From IMG/VR virus record IMGVR_UViG_2529292751_000006, positions 56,786 to 120,785 of that record: DNA of 64,000 nt. One strand, 5' to 3'. Below the pieces are notes generated by a model. That model had not been told where the DNA came from and ran no database searches. It worked only from the letters and a program-made list of their open reading frames with translations. The DNA is from a virus. Lineage: Duplodnaviria > Caudoviricetes. A program made the translations under genes and the position numbers. This document shows, piece after piece, positions 25,301-29,239 of this stretch (position 1 is its first letter; each line of letters starts with the position of its first letter).

Positions 25301-28300
25301 CTTACCTTTTTCAAAGCGCTTCTCTCCATTTACTTTTAATATCTCTGCAACATCGTCAGCCAATATTCCTTGTTGCTCATATAAGCGTGGAAGTTTTAAA
25401 TAGTTAATTGAGCCATCTGTGGTTATATATCCTAGCTCTTTTAATAGATTATTTCCTTGCTTATTTTCAAACATCTCATGAATACGACCCATGAAGTCCT
25501 CTTGTGTCATATAAGCAGTTTTCATATTGATGCTTACCTTATTTGTGTTGTTTAGATTATACTCGTATTCTCTTTGCCTTGGGGTTAGTAAAAGTCTTCT
25601 GCGATCTATTCCTTCATATTTCCCTGATGCAAGATGCCCTTCTAGTTCTTTATCAATTAAATGAGCATTCATCGCTTGTACAGAGTTACCTCGGCCATGA
25701 TTGAAGAAATGACCATATGGTGTCACTTCACGGATATCTTGTAAAGACAATATCCCTTTTTCTACATGTGAATCTTTTAATCCAGAAGTATATAAATTTA
25801 CCCCGAGTTTTTCTTGTGACCATTGTGGCATAAGCTGTAGCATTTCATAGGTTTTAGCCATTTTAATATCATCAAAGGATACGCCTGAACGGAGGACTTT
25901 CTCTCCTCTAGCATTTGTAGTAAAGACATCTTCATAGAAATCCTTATCATTTAATTTTATTAGATTCTTACCATTTTGATATCCATTATGATAAAGGTCT
26001 TCAATCATAGCATTTGCCATTTTCACGTGTGATTGCTTTAAGTTATCTGATTGGTTATTTGCAAAAACATACGTATCATTTGCACCTAAGTCCATGCTTC
26101 TTGAAATACCTGACATACTTTCAGTTTCATTTCTTAGTGTTCGCCTAGCTCTTTTATTGGCTTCTTCATAATTGCCATCATTAGCCGCATCCATAATGTG
26201 AGACATTTTTTTAGCATAGCCTTGAGCAATTTTTTCAGCACTAGATATCATTTTGACATTCTTTCCATCCAATACTGCATAACTATGAGCGTTTAATGTT
26301 AATCCATCTATCTTATGAGTGCCATTGTCACTAATCAATGGCATTGTAAGTTCTAGTGCATTTGTCGGCTTAACCCCACGATGCAATTGATTTTGTACGC
26401 TTGTACTATAAGTATTATCATATACAAATAGTTTCATTACTTCGTTTGGATCCATAGCCATAGTAATACTCTTTGTTGGGTCGTTCTTTTTTACACTAGC
26501 AATAATAGTCTCTAATGCTTGCAAATTATTTGGGCGCAATCTAGAAAATCTCTCTCTATCAAGTATTTCTATAGATTTTGCAAGTTGCTCGCTTAACTCT
26601 AATTTCTTCCCCTTTATAGCTTTGTCATGAAATGATAGGACTACATTTTCAGTATCCTGAATTGCTTGTTTAATAATTTCATTGTTTTCTAATAAGCTGA
26701 GCTTCTTTATATTTTCATTTCCGTTCATTGAGGGAACTGTCATTTCTTGTTCATATTTTCCATAGTTTCGTTTACGCATATCTATTGCCATTTCACCGGC
26801 AGTCGCCCACGGAGAACCAGAACCCGTAATCAATTTTCTGTAAGTACCGCTTTGCTTTGTGTCTATTTTCCCTTGAGACTCCAAGTTATTTACTAAGTTA
26901 ACTAACCGTTCTTTAATTAAAGCTTGTCTATTATCGCCTTCCCCTACTCCTCTTTTTGCATATCCGTAAATATTGCTACGTGCTGAATCTATAGTTTCAA
27001 AATTAATAGAGCGACTATCATTTACTTCAGCATCATAGAACGATAATTTATGCATTTCAAAATCTTTCAGTTTCCTAGCTTCTTCTGGTGACTCTACCCT
27101 ATTAGAAATCAATTGTTGATAGGTCATTAAAGCTCGATCTCTTTTTTGATTTATTCCTCTTAATGCTGCCTGTCTTTCCTTCATATTTGTCTTATTTGCT
27201 GCACGTTGAATATCTGAAGAAAATGCTTCATCAATTTTTTTTACGGTTTCATCCAAGTATGGTAGTTCATCTATTAATCTCTTATGCATTTTAAAGAAAG
27301 CATCTTTTTCCGATTCATTGAATACATATTGCTTTTTCTCATCATCCCATAAACTATGAAAATCCATTTTTTTCATAAGATTATCTGTTGTAACAGTTCG
27401 TGATATTTCCTTCTTAGCTTGATTTCTGCTATAACCCTGCTGAATCAATGCTTCTATTTTTTCAGAGCGATTCTTTCCTGATCCTTCTAAATACTCTTGC
27501 ATAATTTTTGCGTTCTCAAGCATTCGTTTTAAACCAGAAAAACCTTTTGTTCCTCTTTCTGATGTTTCACCATTAATAATATTTAATCCTTTTCCTGCTC
27601 CGTCTAAGCTGAAGAAACTATCATATTTTCTTCGTGCACGATCAGACGTGATATGATGCTTAATTTCTCTCTGCTTTTCGGCATTAATATTATCCCACGC
27701 ATAAAATCGACTTTGAACAAAGTCTTGTAGTTCAGAAAAAGCATTCTCCCCTTTTCTTACAATATAGGAGTATTCATTTTTTTCTGGCTCGAAAAATCGA
27801 AAAGCTAATTTCTTCTCATTCTCATCACTCATATCATGCACACCTGCAAACTGATAGAAGGATTTCGAATTAATTACTGTCTTATTGAATCCATTTGATT
27901 TGTTAACAATGTTTCCTTCTTCATCAAACCCAACTTTAAATGATTCATCGCCATCTCGGTATGCCTGTACACCACCTGATGTAAATAAAACTTGTCCATT
28001 TCTCAATTCTGCATCATTCCATGTCATCTTTGTTTCATGGAATTTAAATCCTTGTCCTGGTAGAGCGTGAGCAGACTCGAATTCATTCAAAATGTGCTTT
28101 CTAGATTTTGCAATTAATTCAGCTGTAGAATCTGTATCTACCGTGGCATTGTGAGCCGAATCCTGTGTATCGCTTCCCAATACATGTCGATATGCTGCTA
28201 ATTTATCTTTTCCATATGGATTTAATTCAGGATTATATTCTGGATTCATCTGCTTTTTTAATTCGTTCGAATCCATATAGGCTGTTCGAATTACGTTAAG

Positions 28301-29239
28301 ATAATCTAAATGCTTAACGTCTTTTGGTATTTCTAAATTTAATTTTTGAGCATATGCCTCCATAACTGGCATATCAAATGTATTACCATTGTAACTAACA
28401 AAGTATTTTTCTTTATTATCATTCATTATTTTAATAATGGCTTGCATTGCTTCTTTAGGAGAATGACCTACTTTAGTCATATTAAATAATCCACTTTCCA
28501 TATAAGGCATATACTGATCCATATGCTTTACAACCTTAGTGTGGTCAACTTGATCCCTATAATCAAATACAGATGTGATTATAGAGTGATGTTTAATTTC
28601 TCCGTTTGCATATGAGAATGGGACATCATCTCCCATTGCATAAGAAGAATAACGCATTAAATCTACTAGTGATCGTTTTTCCCATTCGCTTAAAGAATTA
28701 TAGATATATTTATCGTGTTTGATTCCTTTTATCTTATCCTGAAGGTAATCTATTACATCATTATTTTGATGGACAATACCATTGAATCCGGTCCCTTTGA
28801 TTAGATCACCATTTTTATCATACTCATTAAGAGAAATTTCCGATATACCATAAGGCTTTATACGATCTTGACTATCACCATATGTTTCAATATCAAATAC
28901 ATAATGATTAGATGTTTTCGCAAAGGATTGGAATTGCTCTAAATTCTCTTGCCCTCTACTTAATGATGTAGCATGAAAGAGCTGCATAACTCTTCGCCCG
29001 TCATATAATACAGGCTCTTTCTTCCGGATTAACTCCTCTATTTCTTCTCTCATTGAGCTCTTATCACGATTCAATATAGCAACGTGATTTGCTATTCTCT
29101 TTTCATACTTACGATCAACATTATGAGTTGAATATAACGCATTACTGGTAGCAACAACTTTAAAATCCTTTTGTTTTGGGAGAGCAACACTTGCCCTTAA
29201 ATCTGCGGGCAAGCTTGCATCGAATTGATTCACATCCAT
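22322..29239 (-). CDS. Single-chain two-barrel (beta-beta' fused) RNA polymerase with N-terminal DEDDh 3'-5' exonuclease; putative virion protein
   Basis: FDIET / YNGNTFD / HNATVD exonuclease motifs; collinear RNAP motifs including VKPGD, K..SGEK, IVNP, GVKWGHRE, LQGAV, RYPTFH, NADSDGD (23624-23644), QKLIDAKH. Confidence 0.85.
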   Translation of the reverse strand: MDVNQFDASLPADLRASVALPKQKDFKVVATSNALYSTHNVDRKYEKRIANHVAILNRDKSSMREEIEELIRKKEPVLYDGRRVMQLFHATSLSRGQENLEQFQSFAKTSNHYVFDIETYGDSQDRIKPYGISEISLNEYDKNGDLIKGTGFNGIVHQNNDVIDYLQDKIKGIKHDKYIYNSLSEWEKRSLVDLMRYSSYAMGDDVPFSYANGEIKHHSIITSVFDYRDQVDHTKVVKHMDQYMPYMESGLFNMTKVGHSPKEAMQAIIKIMNDNKEKYFVSYNGNTFDMPVMEAYAQKLNLEIPKDVKHLDYLNVIRTAYMDSNELKKQMNPEYNPELNPYGKDKLAAYRHVLGSDTQDSAHNATVDTDSTAELIAKSRKHILNEFESAHALPGQGFKFHETKMTWNDAELRNGQVLFTSGGVQAYRDGDESFKVGFDEEGNIVNKSNGFNKTVINSKSFYQFAGVHDMSDENEKKLAFRFFEPEKNEYSYIVRKGENAFSELQDFVQSRFYAWDNINAEKQREIKHHITSDRARRKYDSFFSLDGAGKGLNIINGETSERGTKGFSGLKRMLENAKIMQEYLEGSGKNRSEKIEALIQQGYSRNQAKKEISRTVTTDNLMKKMDFHSLWDDEKKQYVFNESEKDAFFKMHKRLIDELPYLDETVKKIDEAFSSDIQRAANKTNMKERQAALRGINQKRDRALMTYQQLISNRVESPEEARKLKDFEMHKLSFYDAEVNDSRSINFETIDSARSNIYGYAKRGVGEGDNRQALIKERLVNLVNNLESQGKIDTKQSGTYRKLITGSGSPWATAGEMAIDMRKRNYGKYEQEMTVPSMNGNENIKKLSLLENNEIIKQAIQDTENVVLSFHDKAIKGKKLELSEQLAKSIEILDRERFSRLRPNNLQALETIIASVKKNDPTKSITMAMDPNEVMKLFVYDNTYSTSVQNQLHRGVKPTNALELTMPLISDNGTHKIDGLTLNAHSYAVLDGKNVKMISSAEKIAQGYAKKMSHIMDAANDGNYEEANKRARRTLRNETESMSGISRSMDLGANDTYVFANNQSDNLKQSHVKMANAMIEDLYHNGYQNGKNLIKLNDKDFYEDVFTTNARGEKVLRSGVSFDDIKMAKTYEMLQLMPQWSQEKLGVNLYTSGLKDSHVEKGILSLQDIREVTPYGHFFNHGRGNSVQAMNAHLIDKELEGHLASGKYEGIDRRRLLLTPRQREYEYNLNNTNKVSINMKTAYMTQEDFMGRIHEMFENKQGNNLLKELGYITTDGSINYLKLPRLYEQQGILADDVAEILKVNGEKRFEKGKQFEWHEDFQGAELNQTVKPGDTLGYRIHDNGYREAIRYEGTHDTKIVDGIQGNKDIILQHKTNAFKLMLSGEKMTDTNADRRLIEAVAGAKDIVAIVNPDVAKHKDFGMLMSGEARILSDYVGGMKKNNQRKNAINIIESGNIGLAWDDRINAFIDNSSNSKIETNAFEKVFSDLQSKGFNVENVTSMQNNRYGLHNREGVRIGILEGIMSKVENYSKATDSSGRAVLGFDEHNQPIHGSYDGVKWGHREMGVLKGRGMEKTFEHVYQEMMKNEGKLTESQNLIHSLGQLGKEDQLSFKGISANEFDSLPEQYKDKALYGGTVFSQNKVESLAEKYGSPELKNKHGYWLELPSVKRNDGQNQKITVNLNGKNTPKEIDKIFIPFTNLDATNGDVHLRELQNHIANIYKKADAVTKATSIEEAKQFHGQLQGAVSRYVDHSFKELTSSKGMLFDGVYKANMSTSASGLFKLMDLNTTMKLQETYGEGQYTAISKDMAQRMGLEERLEAGKHMYTANVRYPTFHDGAMQFTKLIMSDDVKPGEIHTTSFSSMLQNADSDGDYSHIAVIDDKAVQKEWEQAHNRVETEFERRWSEHERKENERLVSERERLNDPLSERRYSGPSLQSVADDGTGHIGKPLVNTSEETASKIGKMTIGRASNLNLFLRQVADQEFSHNVPANEKIKEFGRGLEQKLIDAKHGAKPAGLEMIDAIYNSNWNLAKSIDQDYFDGKFAKDFFLNEVSEELPMALNNLKKGLRSDGFKLGTSTGLSSDMGIQKLLDIMHGNVASDELITSNSGLGMFYKHQNIELPDGAQAGMTDVSELNRTPMQQRNENKKSFVNKMRNAASEGVSGAVTQASEKASGLLDKVKNMSPKKAMFMGGALALGGITSYNILSSEKPVMHYDDSKVKDSGSRKQEPVPAIAMPNDSYSSQNASISIQASGNNMDKEQMSHMVAQGMRDTGMSAGPTRITVNHNDNTQKLNRIWYRDKVQQNV

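What the first reader, a model, noticed from the sequence alone, without database searches (positions are those of the whole stretch)
28100..28910. Intact DEDDh 3'-5' exonuclease fused to the RNA polymerase
Seen: ExoI YVFDIETYG (about 28877-28903), ExoII FVSYNGNTFD and ExoIII AHNATVD (about 28137-28157), all catalytic residues present, about 800 aa upstream of the RNAP core on the same chain. Known: this is the DnaQ/RNase T fold, and two-barrel RNAPs normally proofread by intrinsic or Gre-stimulated cleavage rather than with a fused exonuclease. I do not know a characterised example of this fusion. Inference: transcript proofreading or trimming, resection of the incoming genome end to make an ssDNA template, or destruction of defence oligonucleotides.
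Basis: partly seen in the sequence, partly recalled or inferred. Interest (0 to 1): 0.85.

Follow-up and report, generated by a model that had tools for sequence, protein, structure and literature searches.

The report
Exonuclease fused to phage tail-module RNA polymerase
A 2,305-residue protein in the tail gene cluster of a large Bacillus phage joins an intact DNA/RNA-trimming exonuclease to a hidden single-chain copy of the cell-type RNA polymerase, a pairing not found described for this polymerase class and probably used to start phage transcription on entry.

Summary
Window 22322-29239 (minus strand) is one uninterrupted 2,305-aa ORF. Residues 102-390 form a DnaQ-type DEDDh 3'-5' exonuclease with D116, E118, D289, H363 and D368. 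It passes Pfam RNase_T and matches E. coli ExoI at Z 16.0 and Pol III epsilon at Z 14.2. Residues about 1150-2110 fold as a fused beta/beta'-like two-barrel RNA polymerase with K1379/K1386, RYPTFH and NADSDGD. No sequence library detects this part.

The fusion is not an artefact. All 33 near-length homologues carry it. So do 61 of the 62 representatives of 2,000 aa or more, by HMM. An independent assembly at about 93% identity keeps the frame. One Bacillus cereus-group lineage lost both catalytic centres together.

The gene lies between the tail chaperones and the baseplate hub. Four of five near-complete relatives also encode a separate YonO-like RNAP. I read it as a virion or tail-delivered early RNAP with an on-board exonuclease. 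Its substrate is unresolved. My best guess is resection of entering DNA to make a single-stranded template, with RNA 3' trimming second.

I found no paper describing it. Earlier notes of this scan report the same family on other genomes.

The parts
22322..29239 (-). Whole ORF, 2,305 aa (P0001): exonuclease-RNAP giant protein of the tail module
   Evidence: 33 near-length homologues; one contig of independent run X5 spans it with frame-preserving indels
28937..29239 (-). N-terminal leader, residues 1-101. Least conserved part (mean pairwise identity 26%)
   Evidence: no family match
28070..28936 (-). DEDDh (DnaQ-like) 3'-5' exonuclease domain, residues 102-390, with a helical insertion between Exo I and Exo II
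   Evidence: Pfam RNase_T and RNase_H_2 above cut-off; model; Foldseek and VIA matches; PDB profile hits to TREX-like and PolB exonucleases
28877..28903 (-). Exo I motif YVFDIETYG (D116, E118)
28373..28402 (-). Exo II motif FVSYNGNTFD (N284, D289)
28136..28156 (-). Exo III motif AHNATVD (H363, D368): the H-x4-D of the DEDDh subclass
27578..28030 (-). Conserved beta-rich plus helical domain after the exonuclease, residues 404-554. Function unknown. Most conserved non-catalytic part (46% mean identity)
   Evidence: also present in Bacillus phage WH1 gp095
25793..27562 (-). Middle region, residues 560-1149. No family and no fold assigned
   Evidence: no Pfam match; Atlas gave only viral hypothetical clusters
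24470..25792 (-). beta-like half of the RNAP, residues about 1150-1590, with the first double-psi beta-barrel
   Evidence: model; Foldseek to Rpb2/beta-class subunits, about 475 columns, E 5e-7; VIA: AR9 nvRNAP chain C Z 13.9, NRPD2 13.4, A135 13.2, bacterial beta 12.7
25073..25108 (-). FKLMLSGEKMTD with invariant K1379, E1385, K1386: candidate pair of catalytic lysines of the beta-like barrel
   Evidence: Equating them with the beta-subunit lysines is recalled knowledge, not a tool result
22910..24442 (-). beta'-like half of the RNAP, residues about 1600-2110, with the second barrel and helical modules
   Evidence: VIA: Pol I A190 Z 10.3, Rpb1 10.1, archaeal A' 9.9, M. tuberculosis beta' 9.2
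23735..23752 (-). RYPTFH (invariant R1830, P1832, H1835)
   Evidence: The likeness to the beta' R-x-P-x-x-H element is recalled
23624..23644 (-). NADSDGD (invariant A1867, D1868, S1869, D1870, G1871, D1872): metal-binding Asp triad
22325..22909 (-). C-terminal region, residues 2111-2305: Gly/Ala-rich hydrophobic stretch and conserved tail (…NDNTQKLNRIWYRDK…)
   Evidence: aligns with the C-terminus of WH1 gp095; weak match to the 0305phi8-36 gp146 C-terminus, E 0.056
29254..35346 (-). Upstream giant (P0035, 2,030 aa), homologue of the 0305phi8-36 virion protein gp145
   Evidence: E 4e-103; gp145 is annotated as found in virions by mass spectrometry
15891..22310 (-). Downstream giant (P0036, 2,139 aa): baseplate-hub/tail-lysin protein
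   Evidence: Pfam Lysozyme_like 2.3e-33 and DUF6046; phrog_20474 2817 bits

Best explanation
P0001 is a single 2,305-aa protein of the tail/ejection gene block of a 0305phi8-36/BtI1-like Bacillus myovirus provirus. It carries two catalytic machines. The first is an N-terminal DEDDh 3'-5' exonuclease (residues 102-390). The second is a C-terminal single-chain beta/beta'-type two-barrel RNA polymerase (about 1150-2110). Shown here: both folds, both sets of catalytic residues, their strict co-occurrence across the family, and the gene's fixed place between the tail chaperones and the hub. Inferred: the protein is built into the particle at the tape-measure position, enters the cell with the DNA, and transcribes the first phage genes. 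One of those genes would be the separate YonO-like RNAP, which then takes over. This is the two-polymerase scheme proven for Thermus phage P23-45. Inferred further, and least securely: the exonuclease serves this first transcription by working on a 3' end. My preferred version, at about 35-40%, is that it resects the 3'-ending strand of the entering linear DNA. That would hand the polymerase a single-stranded template. The crAss-like virion RNAP gp66 transcribes ssDNA efficiently in vitro but dsDNA poorly or not at all. The next most likely version is trimming of the RNA 3' end in stalled or misincorporated complexes.
For: Exonuclease. Pfam RNase_T and RNase_H_2 score above cut-off. The model has pLDDT 84.8. 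It matches ExoI at Z 16.0 and Pol III epsilon at Z 14.2, plus TREX, 3'hExo and ERI. D116, E118, D289, H363 and D368 are invariant in 24 of 24 aligned sequences.

RNAP. The model has pLDDT 82.8 and pTM 0.79. Its beta-like half scores Z 12.7-13.9 and its beta'-like half Z 9.2-10.3 against multisubunit RNAPs. K1379, K1386, R1830, P1832, D1868, D1870 and D1872 are kept in 75 of 86 family proteins by HMM alignment.

Fusion. 33 of 33 near-length homologues cover 46-100% of the query. 61 of 62 representatives of 2,000 aa or more carry the exonuclease HMM. 66 of 86 show both complete catalytic sets. The only member with substituted residues has lost both centres together. The exonuclease is about as conserved as the beta-like half: 36% against 39% mean identity, and 4.8% invariant columns in each. 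Independent run X5 keeps the frame.

Tail or virion context. Sheath, chaperone-position genes, three giants and hub lie in the same order in the window, in loci L005, L009 and L010, in phage WH1 and in 0305phi8-36. WH1 gp095, a colinear homologue, is annotated 'virion structural protein'.

Second RNAP. A PF05183 ORF of 1,134-1,183 aa is present in 4 of 5 near-complete relatives.

ssDNA preference of a virion two-barrel RNAP: passages of bioRxiv 10.1101/2020.03.07.982082.
Against: No activity, virion proteomics or transcript data exist for this protein. WH1's 'virion structural protein' is a depositor's label whose basis I could not see. The own record has no YonO-like gene, but it is only 61% complete. 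The positional counterpart in 0305phi8-36 (gp146) has neither domain, so the lineage can do without the fusion. About 760 residues separate the exonuclease from the polymerase, unlike the close-packed proofreading domains of DNA polymerases. Nothing here tells DNA from RNA as substrate: the best structural matches include both DNA exonucleases (ExoI, epsilon, TREX) and RNA exonucleases (3'hExo, ERI, Orn, RNase T). I could not test the orientation argument for end resection, because the only relative labelled 'DTR' has just a 61-bp overlap. One 1,873-aa relative has the RNAP without the exonuclease.
Confidence: 0.55

Rival explanations
1. Transcript proofreading or rescue. The exonuclease removes the RNA 3' end when the polymerase misincorporates or backtracks. 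It would replace the Gre/TFIIS-stimulated intrinsic cleavage of cellular two-barrel RNAPs, much as the coronavirus nsp14 DEDDh ExoN serves the viral RdRp.
For: Both activities sit on one chain and are kept or lost together. The structural neighbours include RNA 3' exonucleases: 3'hExo, ERI, Orn/REXO2 and RNase T. A tethered, single-copy virion enzyme cannot be replaced if it stalls (inference). The nsp14 analogy is recalled knowledge.
Against: Two-barrel RNAPs normally cleave RNA in their own active site (established knowledge). A few early genes hardly need high fidelity. The exonuclease lies about 760 residues from the polymerase. No docking between the two parts was tested.
Confidence: 0.25
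2. The exonuclease works independently of transcription, as ejected cargo. It might degrade host DNA or RNA, or nucleic-acid signals or guides of host defence, and merely rides on the same delivered protein.
For: Ejected phage polyproteins often string unrelated enzymes together. That theme is named in the listing of PMC5512222, which I saw only as a title and abstract start. The neighbouring giants also carry enzymes, for example the lysozyme in P0036.
Against: The pairing is almost invariant: 61 of 62 long representatives. Both centres decay together in the P0020 lineage. That argues for a shared task. No defence-related family matched, but PADLOC was not searched.
Confidence: 0.1
3. The polymerase module makes DNA, or primers, rather than mRNA. 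The exonuclease would then be its proofreader, like archaeal PolD, a two-barrel DNA polymerase paired with an exonuclease subunit.
For: A dedicated 3'-5' exonuclease is the hallmark of replicative DNA polymerases. The Asn of NADSDGD is not conserved in the family (K, E, G or A in others).
Against: The best structural matches are all RNA polymerases. R1830 and P1832 of RYPTFH are kept. The gene sits in the tail module, not the replication module. PolD did not appear among the 50 listed matches, which is only an absence from a list.
Confidence: 0.05
4. The exonuclease fold is a catalytically silent nucleic-acid-binding or structural module, or the fusion is an assembly or annotation artefact.
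For: One lineage (P0020) does carry a dead version. One relative lacks the domain.
Against: All five catalytic residues are invariant in 24 of 24 sequences and complete in 71 of 84 HMM-aligned family members. The other 13 include 11 incomplete alignments, 1 Asn-to-Lys change at non-catalytic N284 (P0060) and 1 case with catalytic residues substituted (P0020). The fusion appears in 33 homologues, 8 viral loci, 3 cultured phages and an independent assembly.
Confidence: 0.04

Closest known systems
Thermus phage P23-45 gp96: tape-measure-fused virion two-barrel RNAP (Chaban et al. 2024, PMC10770324; passages read)
   Same: A single-chain two-barrel RNAP lies inside a giant protein encoded at the tape-measure position. 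It has a DxDGD motif and pairs with a second, non-virion RNAP elsewhere in the genome. Sequence searches barely detect it.
   Different: gp96 belongs to a siphovirus, puts its RNAP at the N-terminus and follows it with about 3,800 aa of ruler. Its first 360 and first 1,300 residues give no Pfam exonuclease match. The word 'exonuclease' occurs 0 times in the paper's main text. Structural likeness to P0001 is low: 8h2n Z 6.2, against Z 12.7-13.9 for multisubunit beta subunits. P0001 belongs to a myovirus and its RNAP is C-terminal.
crAss-like phage phi14:2 gp66 virion RNAP (PDB 6VR4; bioRxiv 10.1101/2020.03.07.982082, passages read)
   Same: A giant (about 2,180-aa) virion-packaged single-chain two-barrel RNAP, encoded next to other giant ejected proteins. 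It transcribes ssDNA efficiently and dsDNA poorly in vitro.
   Different: It comes from a podovirus and is QDE-1-like. Structural match to P0001 is only Z 6.6. 'Exonuclease' and 'nuclease' occur 0 times in the preprint text.
Jumbo-phage multisubunit RNAPs (AR9 and phiKZ non-virion RNAP; PDB 7S00, 7OGP)
   Same: These are the best structural neighbours of the beta-like half (Z 13.9 and 12.8). They are phage-encoded beta/beta' relatives without alpha or omega.
   Different: They consist of four or five separate polypeptides rather than one chain, and no fused exonuclease is reported. No sequence-level match exists: the PDB profile search with A4 found 0 hits.
YonO / 0305phi8-36 gp99 (PF05183, RdRP-like single-subunit RNAP)
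   Same: A single-chain two-barrel RNAP of Bacillus phages. It co-occurs with P0001-type genes in 4 of 5 relatives.
   Different: It is a separate gene of about 1,150 aa outside the tail module. P0001 gives no PF05183 match. Iyer et al. 2021 list only this YonO-like enzyme as the RNAP of 0305phi8-36 (PMC7824862, passages).
DnaQ-like DEDDh exonucleases (Pol III epsilon, ExoI, TREX1/2, RNase T, Orn, 3'hExo; coronavirus nsp14 ExoN as a polymerase-associated case)
   Same: Same fold and the same five catalytic residues. nsp14 is a DEDDh exonuclease that serves an RNA polymerase (recalled).
   Different: None of these is covalently joined to a two-barrel RNAP. P0001's domain has an insertion of about 100 residues between Exo I and Exo II. 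It reaches only borderline sequence scores.
Archaeal PolD (two-barrel DNA polymerase DP2 with exonuclease subunit DP1)
   Same: It is the only two-barrel polymerase I know that is paired with a dedicated 3'-5' exonuclease (recalled; see also PMC7281927, listed, abstract only).
   Different: DP1 is an Mre11-type phosphoesterase, not DEDDh. It is a separate subunit, and the enzyme makes DNA.

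Membership tests
DEDDh (DnaQ-like) 3'-5' exonuclease superfamily | Exo I motif D-x-E | tested here: met
   D116-I-E118; invariant in 24 of 24 and in 8 of 8 including phage WH1
DEDDh (DnaQ-like) 3'-5' exonuclease superfamily | Exo II motif with conserved Asp (N-x3-[FY]-D) | tested here: met
   N284…F288-D289 invariant; aligned to the Exo II of TREX-like and PolB exonucleases
DEDDh (DnaQ-like) 3'-5' exonuclease superfamily | Exo III motif H-x4-D (the 'h' subclass) | tested here: met
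   H363-N-A-T-V-D368 invariant; aligned to H-x-A-x-x-D of a TREX1 homologue
DEDDh (DnaQ-like) 3'-5' exonuclease superfamily | RNase H-like alpha/beta fold | tested here: met
   Model pLDDT 84.8; Z 16.0 to ExoI and 14.2 to epsilon, 168 aligned (chain length 174) at 2.5 A
DEDDh (DnaQ-like) 3'-5' exonuclease superfamily | Curated profile score (Pfam PF00929 RNase_T) | tested here: met
   26.4 bits against cut-off 24 for the domain alone; 23.2 bits, just below cut-off, for the whole protein
DEDDh (DnaQ-like) 3'-5' exonuclease superfamily | Metal-dependent 3'-5' exonuclease activity | not testable with these tools
   Needs an enzyme assay
Two-barrel (beta/beta'-type) RNA polymerases | Two double-psi beta-barrels in beta-like then beta'-like order | tested here: met
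   Model residues 8-438 match beta-class subunits (Z 12.7-13.9). Residues 452-961 match beta'-class subunits (Z 9.2-10.3). Isolated DPBB domains also match 626-756
Two-barrel (beta/beta'-type) RNA polymerases | DxDxD metal-binding loop in the beta'-like barrel | tested here: met
   D1868-S-D1870-G-D1872 invariant; DDD kept in 84 of 86 family proteins by HMM alignment
Two-barrel (beta/beta'-type) RNA polymerases | Two basic residues in the beta-like barrel | tested here: inconclusive
   K1379 and K1386 are invariant and lie in the beta-like half. That they are the catalytic lysines rests on recalled motif likeness, not on a residue-level superposition
Two-barrel (beta/beta'-type) RNA polymerases | Match to a curated RNAP sequence family | tested here: not met
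   No Pfam, NCBIfam or PHROG family for residues 1150-2110. The PDB profile search found 0 hits. Only a faint PF00623 hit in WH1 gp095, E 0.09
Two-barrel (beta/beta'-type) RNA polymerases | Template-dependent RNA synthesis | not testable with these tools
   Needs an enzyme assay
Tape-measure-fused / tail-delivered virion RNAP (P23-45 gp96 type) | RNAP encoded in the giant gene between the tail chaperones and the hub | tested here: met
   Synteny in the window and in WH1, 0305phi8-36, L005, L009 and L010
Tape-measure-fused / tail-delivered virion RNAP (P23-45 gp96 type) | Protein present in the virion | not tested
   Only depositor labels: 'virion structural protein' for WH1 gp095 and 'structural protein' for KLEB27-3
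Tape-measure-fused / tail-delivered virion RNAP (P23-45 gp96 type) | Long ruler segment in the same chain | tested here: inconclusive
   Residues 560-1149 and 2111-2305 were not modelled. There is no TMP family match. The true ruler may be P0035 or P0036 (phrog_167 match in P0036)
Tape-measure-fused / tail-delivered virion RNAP (P23-45 gp96 type) | A second, non-virion RNAP in the genome | tested here: inconclusive
   Present in 4 of 5 near-complete relatives. Absent from the own record, which is 61% complete
YonO / RdRP family (PF05183) | Profile match to PF05183 | tested here: not met
   No match in P0001 or anywhere in the own record

The most novel reading that the evidence does not exclude
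This would be the first transcription-type (two-barrel) RNA polymerase with its own covalently attached proofreading or 3'-end-processing exonuclease. If so, a phage has solved fidelity or template preparation for a cell-type RNAP in the way DNA polymerases and coronaviruses do, not with Gre/TFIIS-type factors. The exonuclease and polymerase would act on the same nucleic-acid 3' end during the first seconds of infection, while the protein is still tethered to the tail channel.
Probability: 0.25. Interest if true: 0.9.

Novelty: new variant of a known kind. Interest (0 to 1): 0.7.

Why it matters
Virion-delivered two-barrel RNAPs are known from only a few phages (crAss-like, P23-45). This family adds a third, structurally distinct lineage. 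It is closer to multisubunit beta/beta' enzymes than to QDE-1 or YonO, and it occurs in cultured and uncultured Bacillales phages of about 190-230 kb.

The fused DEDDh exonuclease is the unexpected part. Two-barrel RNAPs are thought to need no separate exonuclease. A conserved, catalytically intact one therefore points to a step in early phage transcription that has not been described. That step could be making a single-stranded template from the entering DNA end, or editing RNA.

The question is directly testable, because three cultured phages (WH1, Edson, KLEB27-3) carry homologues. The finding also corrects current annotation ('ribonuclease H-like domain-containing protein', 'hypothetical protein', 'virion structural protein'). 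It shows that a gene at a position called 'tape measure' by location can be an enzyme.

Tried and rejected
Sequence searches for the RNAP part found nothing. Pfam, PHROGs and NCBIfam gave no family. PDB searches by phmmer and by profile gave 0 RNAP hits. Only structure prediction revealed it.

The Atlas search of residues 560-1149 returned only viral hypothetical clusters, best score 0.90 with recognition below the stated level. No fold was assigned.

0305phi8-36 gp146 was tested as a homologue and rejected. It has no exonuclease or RNAP HMM match and no D-x-E[TNSG], DxDGD, H-x4-D or R-x-P motif by regex. BLASTP gave only E 0.056 at the C-terminus, and Pfam gave no match.

NCgl1702 of Corynebacterium, a 2,169-aa beta::beta' fusion named in PMC2919709, was considered as a possible relative. 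I could not fetch it, and the genome-contig scan found only Oceanobacillus and Alicyclobacillus loci. Untested.

I tried to use gene orientation at genome termini to test end resection. The relative G001 is labelled DTR but has only a 61-bp overlap, so its contig ends are not physical termini. Abandoned.

A strand-specific hairpin motif in G001 is absent from G000, G002, G003 and G005. It is not used as evidence.

RNA evidence: no RNA holder was listed. The two RNA runs I laid gave 0 reads and are no test.

PolD, P23-45 gp96 and crAss gp66 rank low or are missing among the structural matches. That shows distance, not exclusion.

Complex prediction was not used, because I make no binding claim between the two domains. 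PADLOC was not searched.

Papers not held: Iyer & Aravind 2012 and Iyer et al. 2003. Thomas et al. 2007 (Virology) was not read. The survey of viral two-barrel RNAPs in the supplements of PMC10770324 and the tables of PMC7824862 might list this family. The claim 'not found in print' rests on searches, and on passages read.

Full report
WHAT IS THERE. The window is the right-hand 64 kb of a 120,785-bp IMG/VR record classed as a provirus and estimated 61% complete. Nearly all of its genes lie on the minus strand and form a contractile-tail structural module. The module runs from large terminase (61950-63737) through portal (57970-60084) and sheath (39405-42326, phrog_16991) to fibre-like proteins. 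Three giant ORFs follow one another with gaps of 11-14 nt: 29254-35346 (2,030 aa, P0035), 22322-29239 (2,305 aa, P0001) and 15891-22310 (2,139 aa, P0036). The finding concerns the N-terminus of the middle one.

THE OBSERVATION. Exo I is YVFDIETYG at residues 113-121. Exo II is FVSYNGNTFD at 280-289. Exo III is AHNATVD at 362-368. On the whole protein the Pfam scores are borderline: RNase_H_2 24.8 bits, RNase_T 23.2 bits. On the domain alone both pass their curated cut-offs, with RNase_T at 26.4 against 24 and RNase_H_2 at 26.0 against 22.

An AlphaFold2 model of residues 85-560, built on 24 homologues, has mean pLDDT 84.8 and pTM 0.78. Foldseek finds DnaQ-fold exonucleases at probability 1.00: S. 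aureus DinG exonuclease, ExoI, Orn, RNase T, REXO2, a Cas2-linked DnaQ domain and TREX2. VIA-align gives Z 16.0 to E. coli ExoI (195 aligned, 3.0 A) and Z 14.2 to Pol III epsilon (168 aligned, chain length 174, 2.5 A). It gives Z about 13-14 to TREX1/2, 3'hExo and ERI. A family profile hits a TREX1 homologue in the PDB at E 6e-5, with Exo II and Exo III in register. D116, E118, N284, D289, H363 and D368 are invariant in 24 aligned homologues down to 28% identity. They are also invariant in an 8-row alignment that includes the cultured Bacillus phage vB_BceM_WH1. The domain is therefore an intact DEDDh exonuclease. It carries an insertion of about 100 residues between Exo I and Exo II.

THE POLYMERASE. 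No sequence library recognises residues 1150-2110. The model of this stretch is confident, with pLDDT 82.8 and pTM 0.79. Foldseek aligns about 475 columns to the second-largest subunits of Pol I, II, III and IV and of archaeal, vaccinia, ASFV and plastid RNAPs, with E down to 5e-7.

A search of 48,161 PDB representatives that does not rely on Foldseek places model residues 8-438 on beta-class subunits:
- AR9 non-virion RNAP chain C, Z 13.9
- NRPD2, Z 13.4
- A135, Z 13.2
- phiKZ nvRNAP chain C, Z 12.8
- bacterial beta, Z 12.7

It places residues 452-961 on beta'-class subunits: Pol I A190 at 10.3, Rpb1 at 10.1, archaeal A' at 9.9 and M. tuberculosis beta' at 9.2. Single-chain enzymes score lower: QDE-1 9.5, RDR2 9.4, P74-26 gp62 6.9, crAss phi14:2 gp66 6.6 and P23-45 gp96 6.2.

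The invariant residues fit this reading: K1379, E1385 and K1386 in the beta-like half, R1830, P1832 and H1835 (RYPTFH), and A-D-S-D-G-D at 1867-1872. Equating these with the beta lysines and with the beta' R-x-P-x-x-H and NADFDGD elements is recalled knowledge. P0001 thus contains a fused beta/beta'-type RNAP that stands nearer to multisubunit enzymes than to YonO or crAss-type ones.

IS THE FUSION REAL? Thirty-three near-length homologues (1,777-2,693 aa) were found. All but two cover 95-100% of the query. They are labelled Bacillus cereus group, Priestia megaterium, B. subtilis, B. licheniformis, B. atrophaeus and B. velezensis, and many lie on contigs of about 190-225 kb.

A profile of the RNAP part alone, scored against 1.84 billion representatives, found 81 proteins. 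Sixty-two of them have 2,000 aa or more, and 61 of those 62 also match an HMM of the exonuclease domain at E<1e-5. The remaining one (P0088) shows the three motifs by regular expression only. The 19 shorter hits include 9 that I looked up. Of those, 7 lie on contigs of 1.7-15.5 kb, and 3 of those 7 share a 90% cluster with a member of 1,979-2,396 aa, so they are fragments. A search for shorter proteins matching residues 100-395 gave only two, on contigs of 900 and 2,767 bp.

In an independent run (X5), one contig spans the whole ORF with 458 substitutions. Its only indels preserve the frame: a 1-nt loss and a 1-nt gain six bases apart, and two 3-nt losses. Run X1 is identical but may be the source of this DNA.

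Of 86 family proteins of 1,700 aa or more, 66 show both complete catalytic sets by HMM alignment. Sixteen differ from the full pattern only by unaligned positions. Three have a single change of the first lysine (P0065, P0073, P0095; P0095 also has unaligned Exo I positions). One has substitutions in both sets (P0020). The exonuclease is about as conserved as the beta-like half: 36% against 39% mean pairwise identity, and 4.8% invariant columns in both.

TWO INSTRUCTIVE EXCEPTIONS. The first is cluster P0020: 1,777 aa, 26 members, B. cereus-group contigs of about 130-165 kb, one of them labelled plasmid. It keeps residues 1-1053 and 1534-2305. Exo I has D to N and Exo III has H to Q. It lacks the stretch with both lysines, and it lacks the DxDGD loop. 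Both catalytic centres decayed together while the scaffold stayed. That fits a structural role plus a joint enzymatic role.

The second is P0048: 1,873 aa, on a 198,868-bp contig of an assembly labelled Rhodococcus sp. It has the polymerase (GDQDGD) but starts at the equivalent of residue about 436, without the exonuclease.

CONTEXT. The order tail chaperones, giant 1, giant 2, giant 3 (hub) is kept in several places. In phage WH1 the run is gp098/097, gp096 (2,025 aa), gp095 (2,515 aa) and gp094. It is kept in 0305phi8-36 as ORF143/144, gp145, gp146 and gp147. The run of giant ORFs itself is also kept in uncultured relatives L005 and L009 and, up to its contig end, L010.

WH1 gp095 is a colinear, distant homologue at 21-27% identity. 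It has FDIEN, N-x3-Y-D, H-x4-D, RYPTIN, ADHDGD and the shared C-terminus. Its depositors call it 'virion structural protein'. Only three cultured phages carry a homologue: WH1, Edson and KLEB27-3.

P0035 is a clear homologue of 0305phi8-36 gp145 (E 4e-103), which is annotated as found in virions by mass spectrometry. 0305phi8-36 gp146 is the 'hypothetical tape measure protein' of Hardies et al. 2007 (PMC2147016, passages). It has none of the motifs and no HMM match. The same slot thus holds an enzyme-free protein in one branch and the exonuclease-RNAP in another. This parallels P23-45 relatives that lack the RNAP fusion (PMC10770324, passage).

Four of five near-complete relatives (191-216 kb) also encode a separate PF05183 (YonO/RdRP-like) ORF of 1,134-1,183 aa. 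The own, incomplete record has none. Iyer et al. 2021 list only the YonO-like enzyme as the RNAP of 0305phi8-36 (PMC7824862, passage).

HOW IT PROBABLY WORKS. Shown: two intact catalytic modules on one chain, their co-inheritance, and the tail-module position. Inferred: the protein is assembled into the tail or ejection apparatus, enters with the DNA and performs the first transcription. The YonO-like polymerase would act later, as in P23-45.

The exonuclease's substrate is open. I favour DNA-end resection, at about 35-40%. The one characterised virion-packaged two-barrel RNAP, crAss gp66, transcribes ssDNA and denatured DNA efficiently, did not transcribe double-stranded M13 DNA, and only weakly transcribed native phage DNA (bioRxiv 10.1101/2020.03.07.982082, passages). 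A 3'-5' exonuclease at the entering end would expose exactly such a template. RNA 3'-end trimming (about 25%) is the main rival. Independent cargo functions, a DNA-synthesising role and a silent domain are less likely. The structural neighbours include both DNA and RNA exonucleases, so they do not decide the matter.

NOVELTY. My searches and the passages I read found no description of an exonuclease joined to a two-barrel RNAP. They also found no description of an RNAP in this Bacillales phage gene. Public names are 'ribonuclease H-like domain-containing protein' or 'hypothetical protein'.

Caveats apply. Two relevant papers were not held, and supplements were closed. Earlier AI notes of this same scan describe the same family on other genomes, and exonuclease-RNAP-tape-measure fusions in other lineages. 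I did not check those notes, and they are not independent evidence.

I class the finding as a new variant of a known kind (tail-delivered virion two-barrel RNAP). The fused DEDDh exonuclease is the new element.

Noticed in passing
P0020 cluster (relatives; aligns to window 22322-29239): A 1,777-aa derivative on B. cereus-group contigs of about 130-165 kb (one labelled plasmid). It has lost the Exo I Asp, the Exo III His, the beta-like barrel with both lysines and the DxDGD loop, but keeps the rest of the protein.
   Followed up: partly
L018:7624-15237 (Bacillus phage 0305phi8-36 ORF146): This virion protein, annotated 'hypothetical tape measure protein', occupies the same slot as P0001. It has no exonuclease or RNAP motifs and no detectable homology beyond a weak C-terminal match. 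The slot has been swapped between branches of the lineage.
   Followed up: yes
L011-L014 (relatives G005, G003, G001, G002): A separate YonO/RdRP-like (PF05183) ORF of 1,134-1,183 aa is present in 4 of 5 near-complete relatives. This implies a two-polymerase programme. None is present in the own 61%-complete record.
   Followed up: partly
G001:C1 212479-215870 and 1-13190 (L020, L021): A strand-specific motif, CACSRAA-N4-CCGGAGG, has a covarying short stem around a GGA loop. It occurs 12 times forward, 0 reverse and 0 in the control. Ten copies cluster in an all-minus-strand block of small ORFs next to the YonO-like gene. They could be promoters, terminators or processing sites. The motif is absent from G000, G002, G003 and G005.
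   Followed up: partly
window 29254-35346 (-): P0035 (2,030 aa) matches no family but is a homologue of 0305phi8-36 virion protein gp145 (E 4e-103). It has hydrophobic Gly-rich segments. Other first-stage notes suggest a degenerate SNase-like domain in it, which I did not test.
   Followed up: partly
window 15891-22310 (-): P0036 (2,139 aa) is a hub or tail-lysin giant. It matches Pfam Lysozyme_like (2.3e-33) and DUF6046, has a tape-measure PHROG match (phrog_167) in its middle, and ends in HWNHLH, which looks like an M15-type peptidase motif.
   Followed up: no
window 5826-11458 (-): Two proteins of this stretch, 5826-7589 and 10112-11458, share a C-terminal module (phrog_22713; Hoc-like Ig) behind different heads. 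They look like exchangeable receptor-binding proteins (also noted by first readers).
   Followed up: no
P0048 (relative): A 1,873-aa family member from an assembly labelled Rhodococcus sp., on a 198,868-bp contig. It has the RNAP module (GDQDGD) but no exonuclease domain. Whether the exonuclease is a separate upstream gene, is lost, or was mis-called could not be checked.
   Followed up: partly
L015, L016: Whole-contig copies of related elements of about 195-198 kb sit in assemblies of Oceanobacillus profundus and Alicyclobacillus shizuokensis. This suggests extrachromosomal or pseudolysogenic carriage of these large phages across Bacillales.
   Followed up: no
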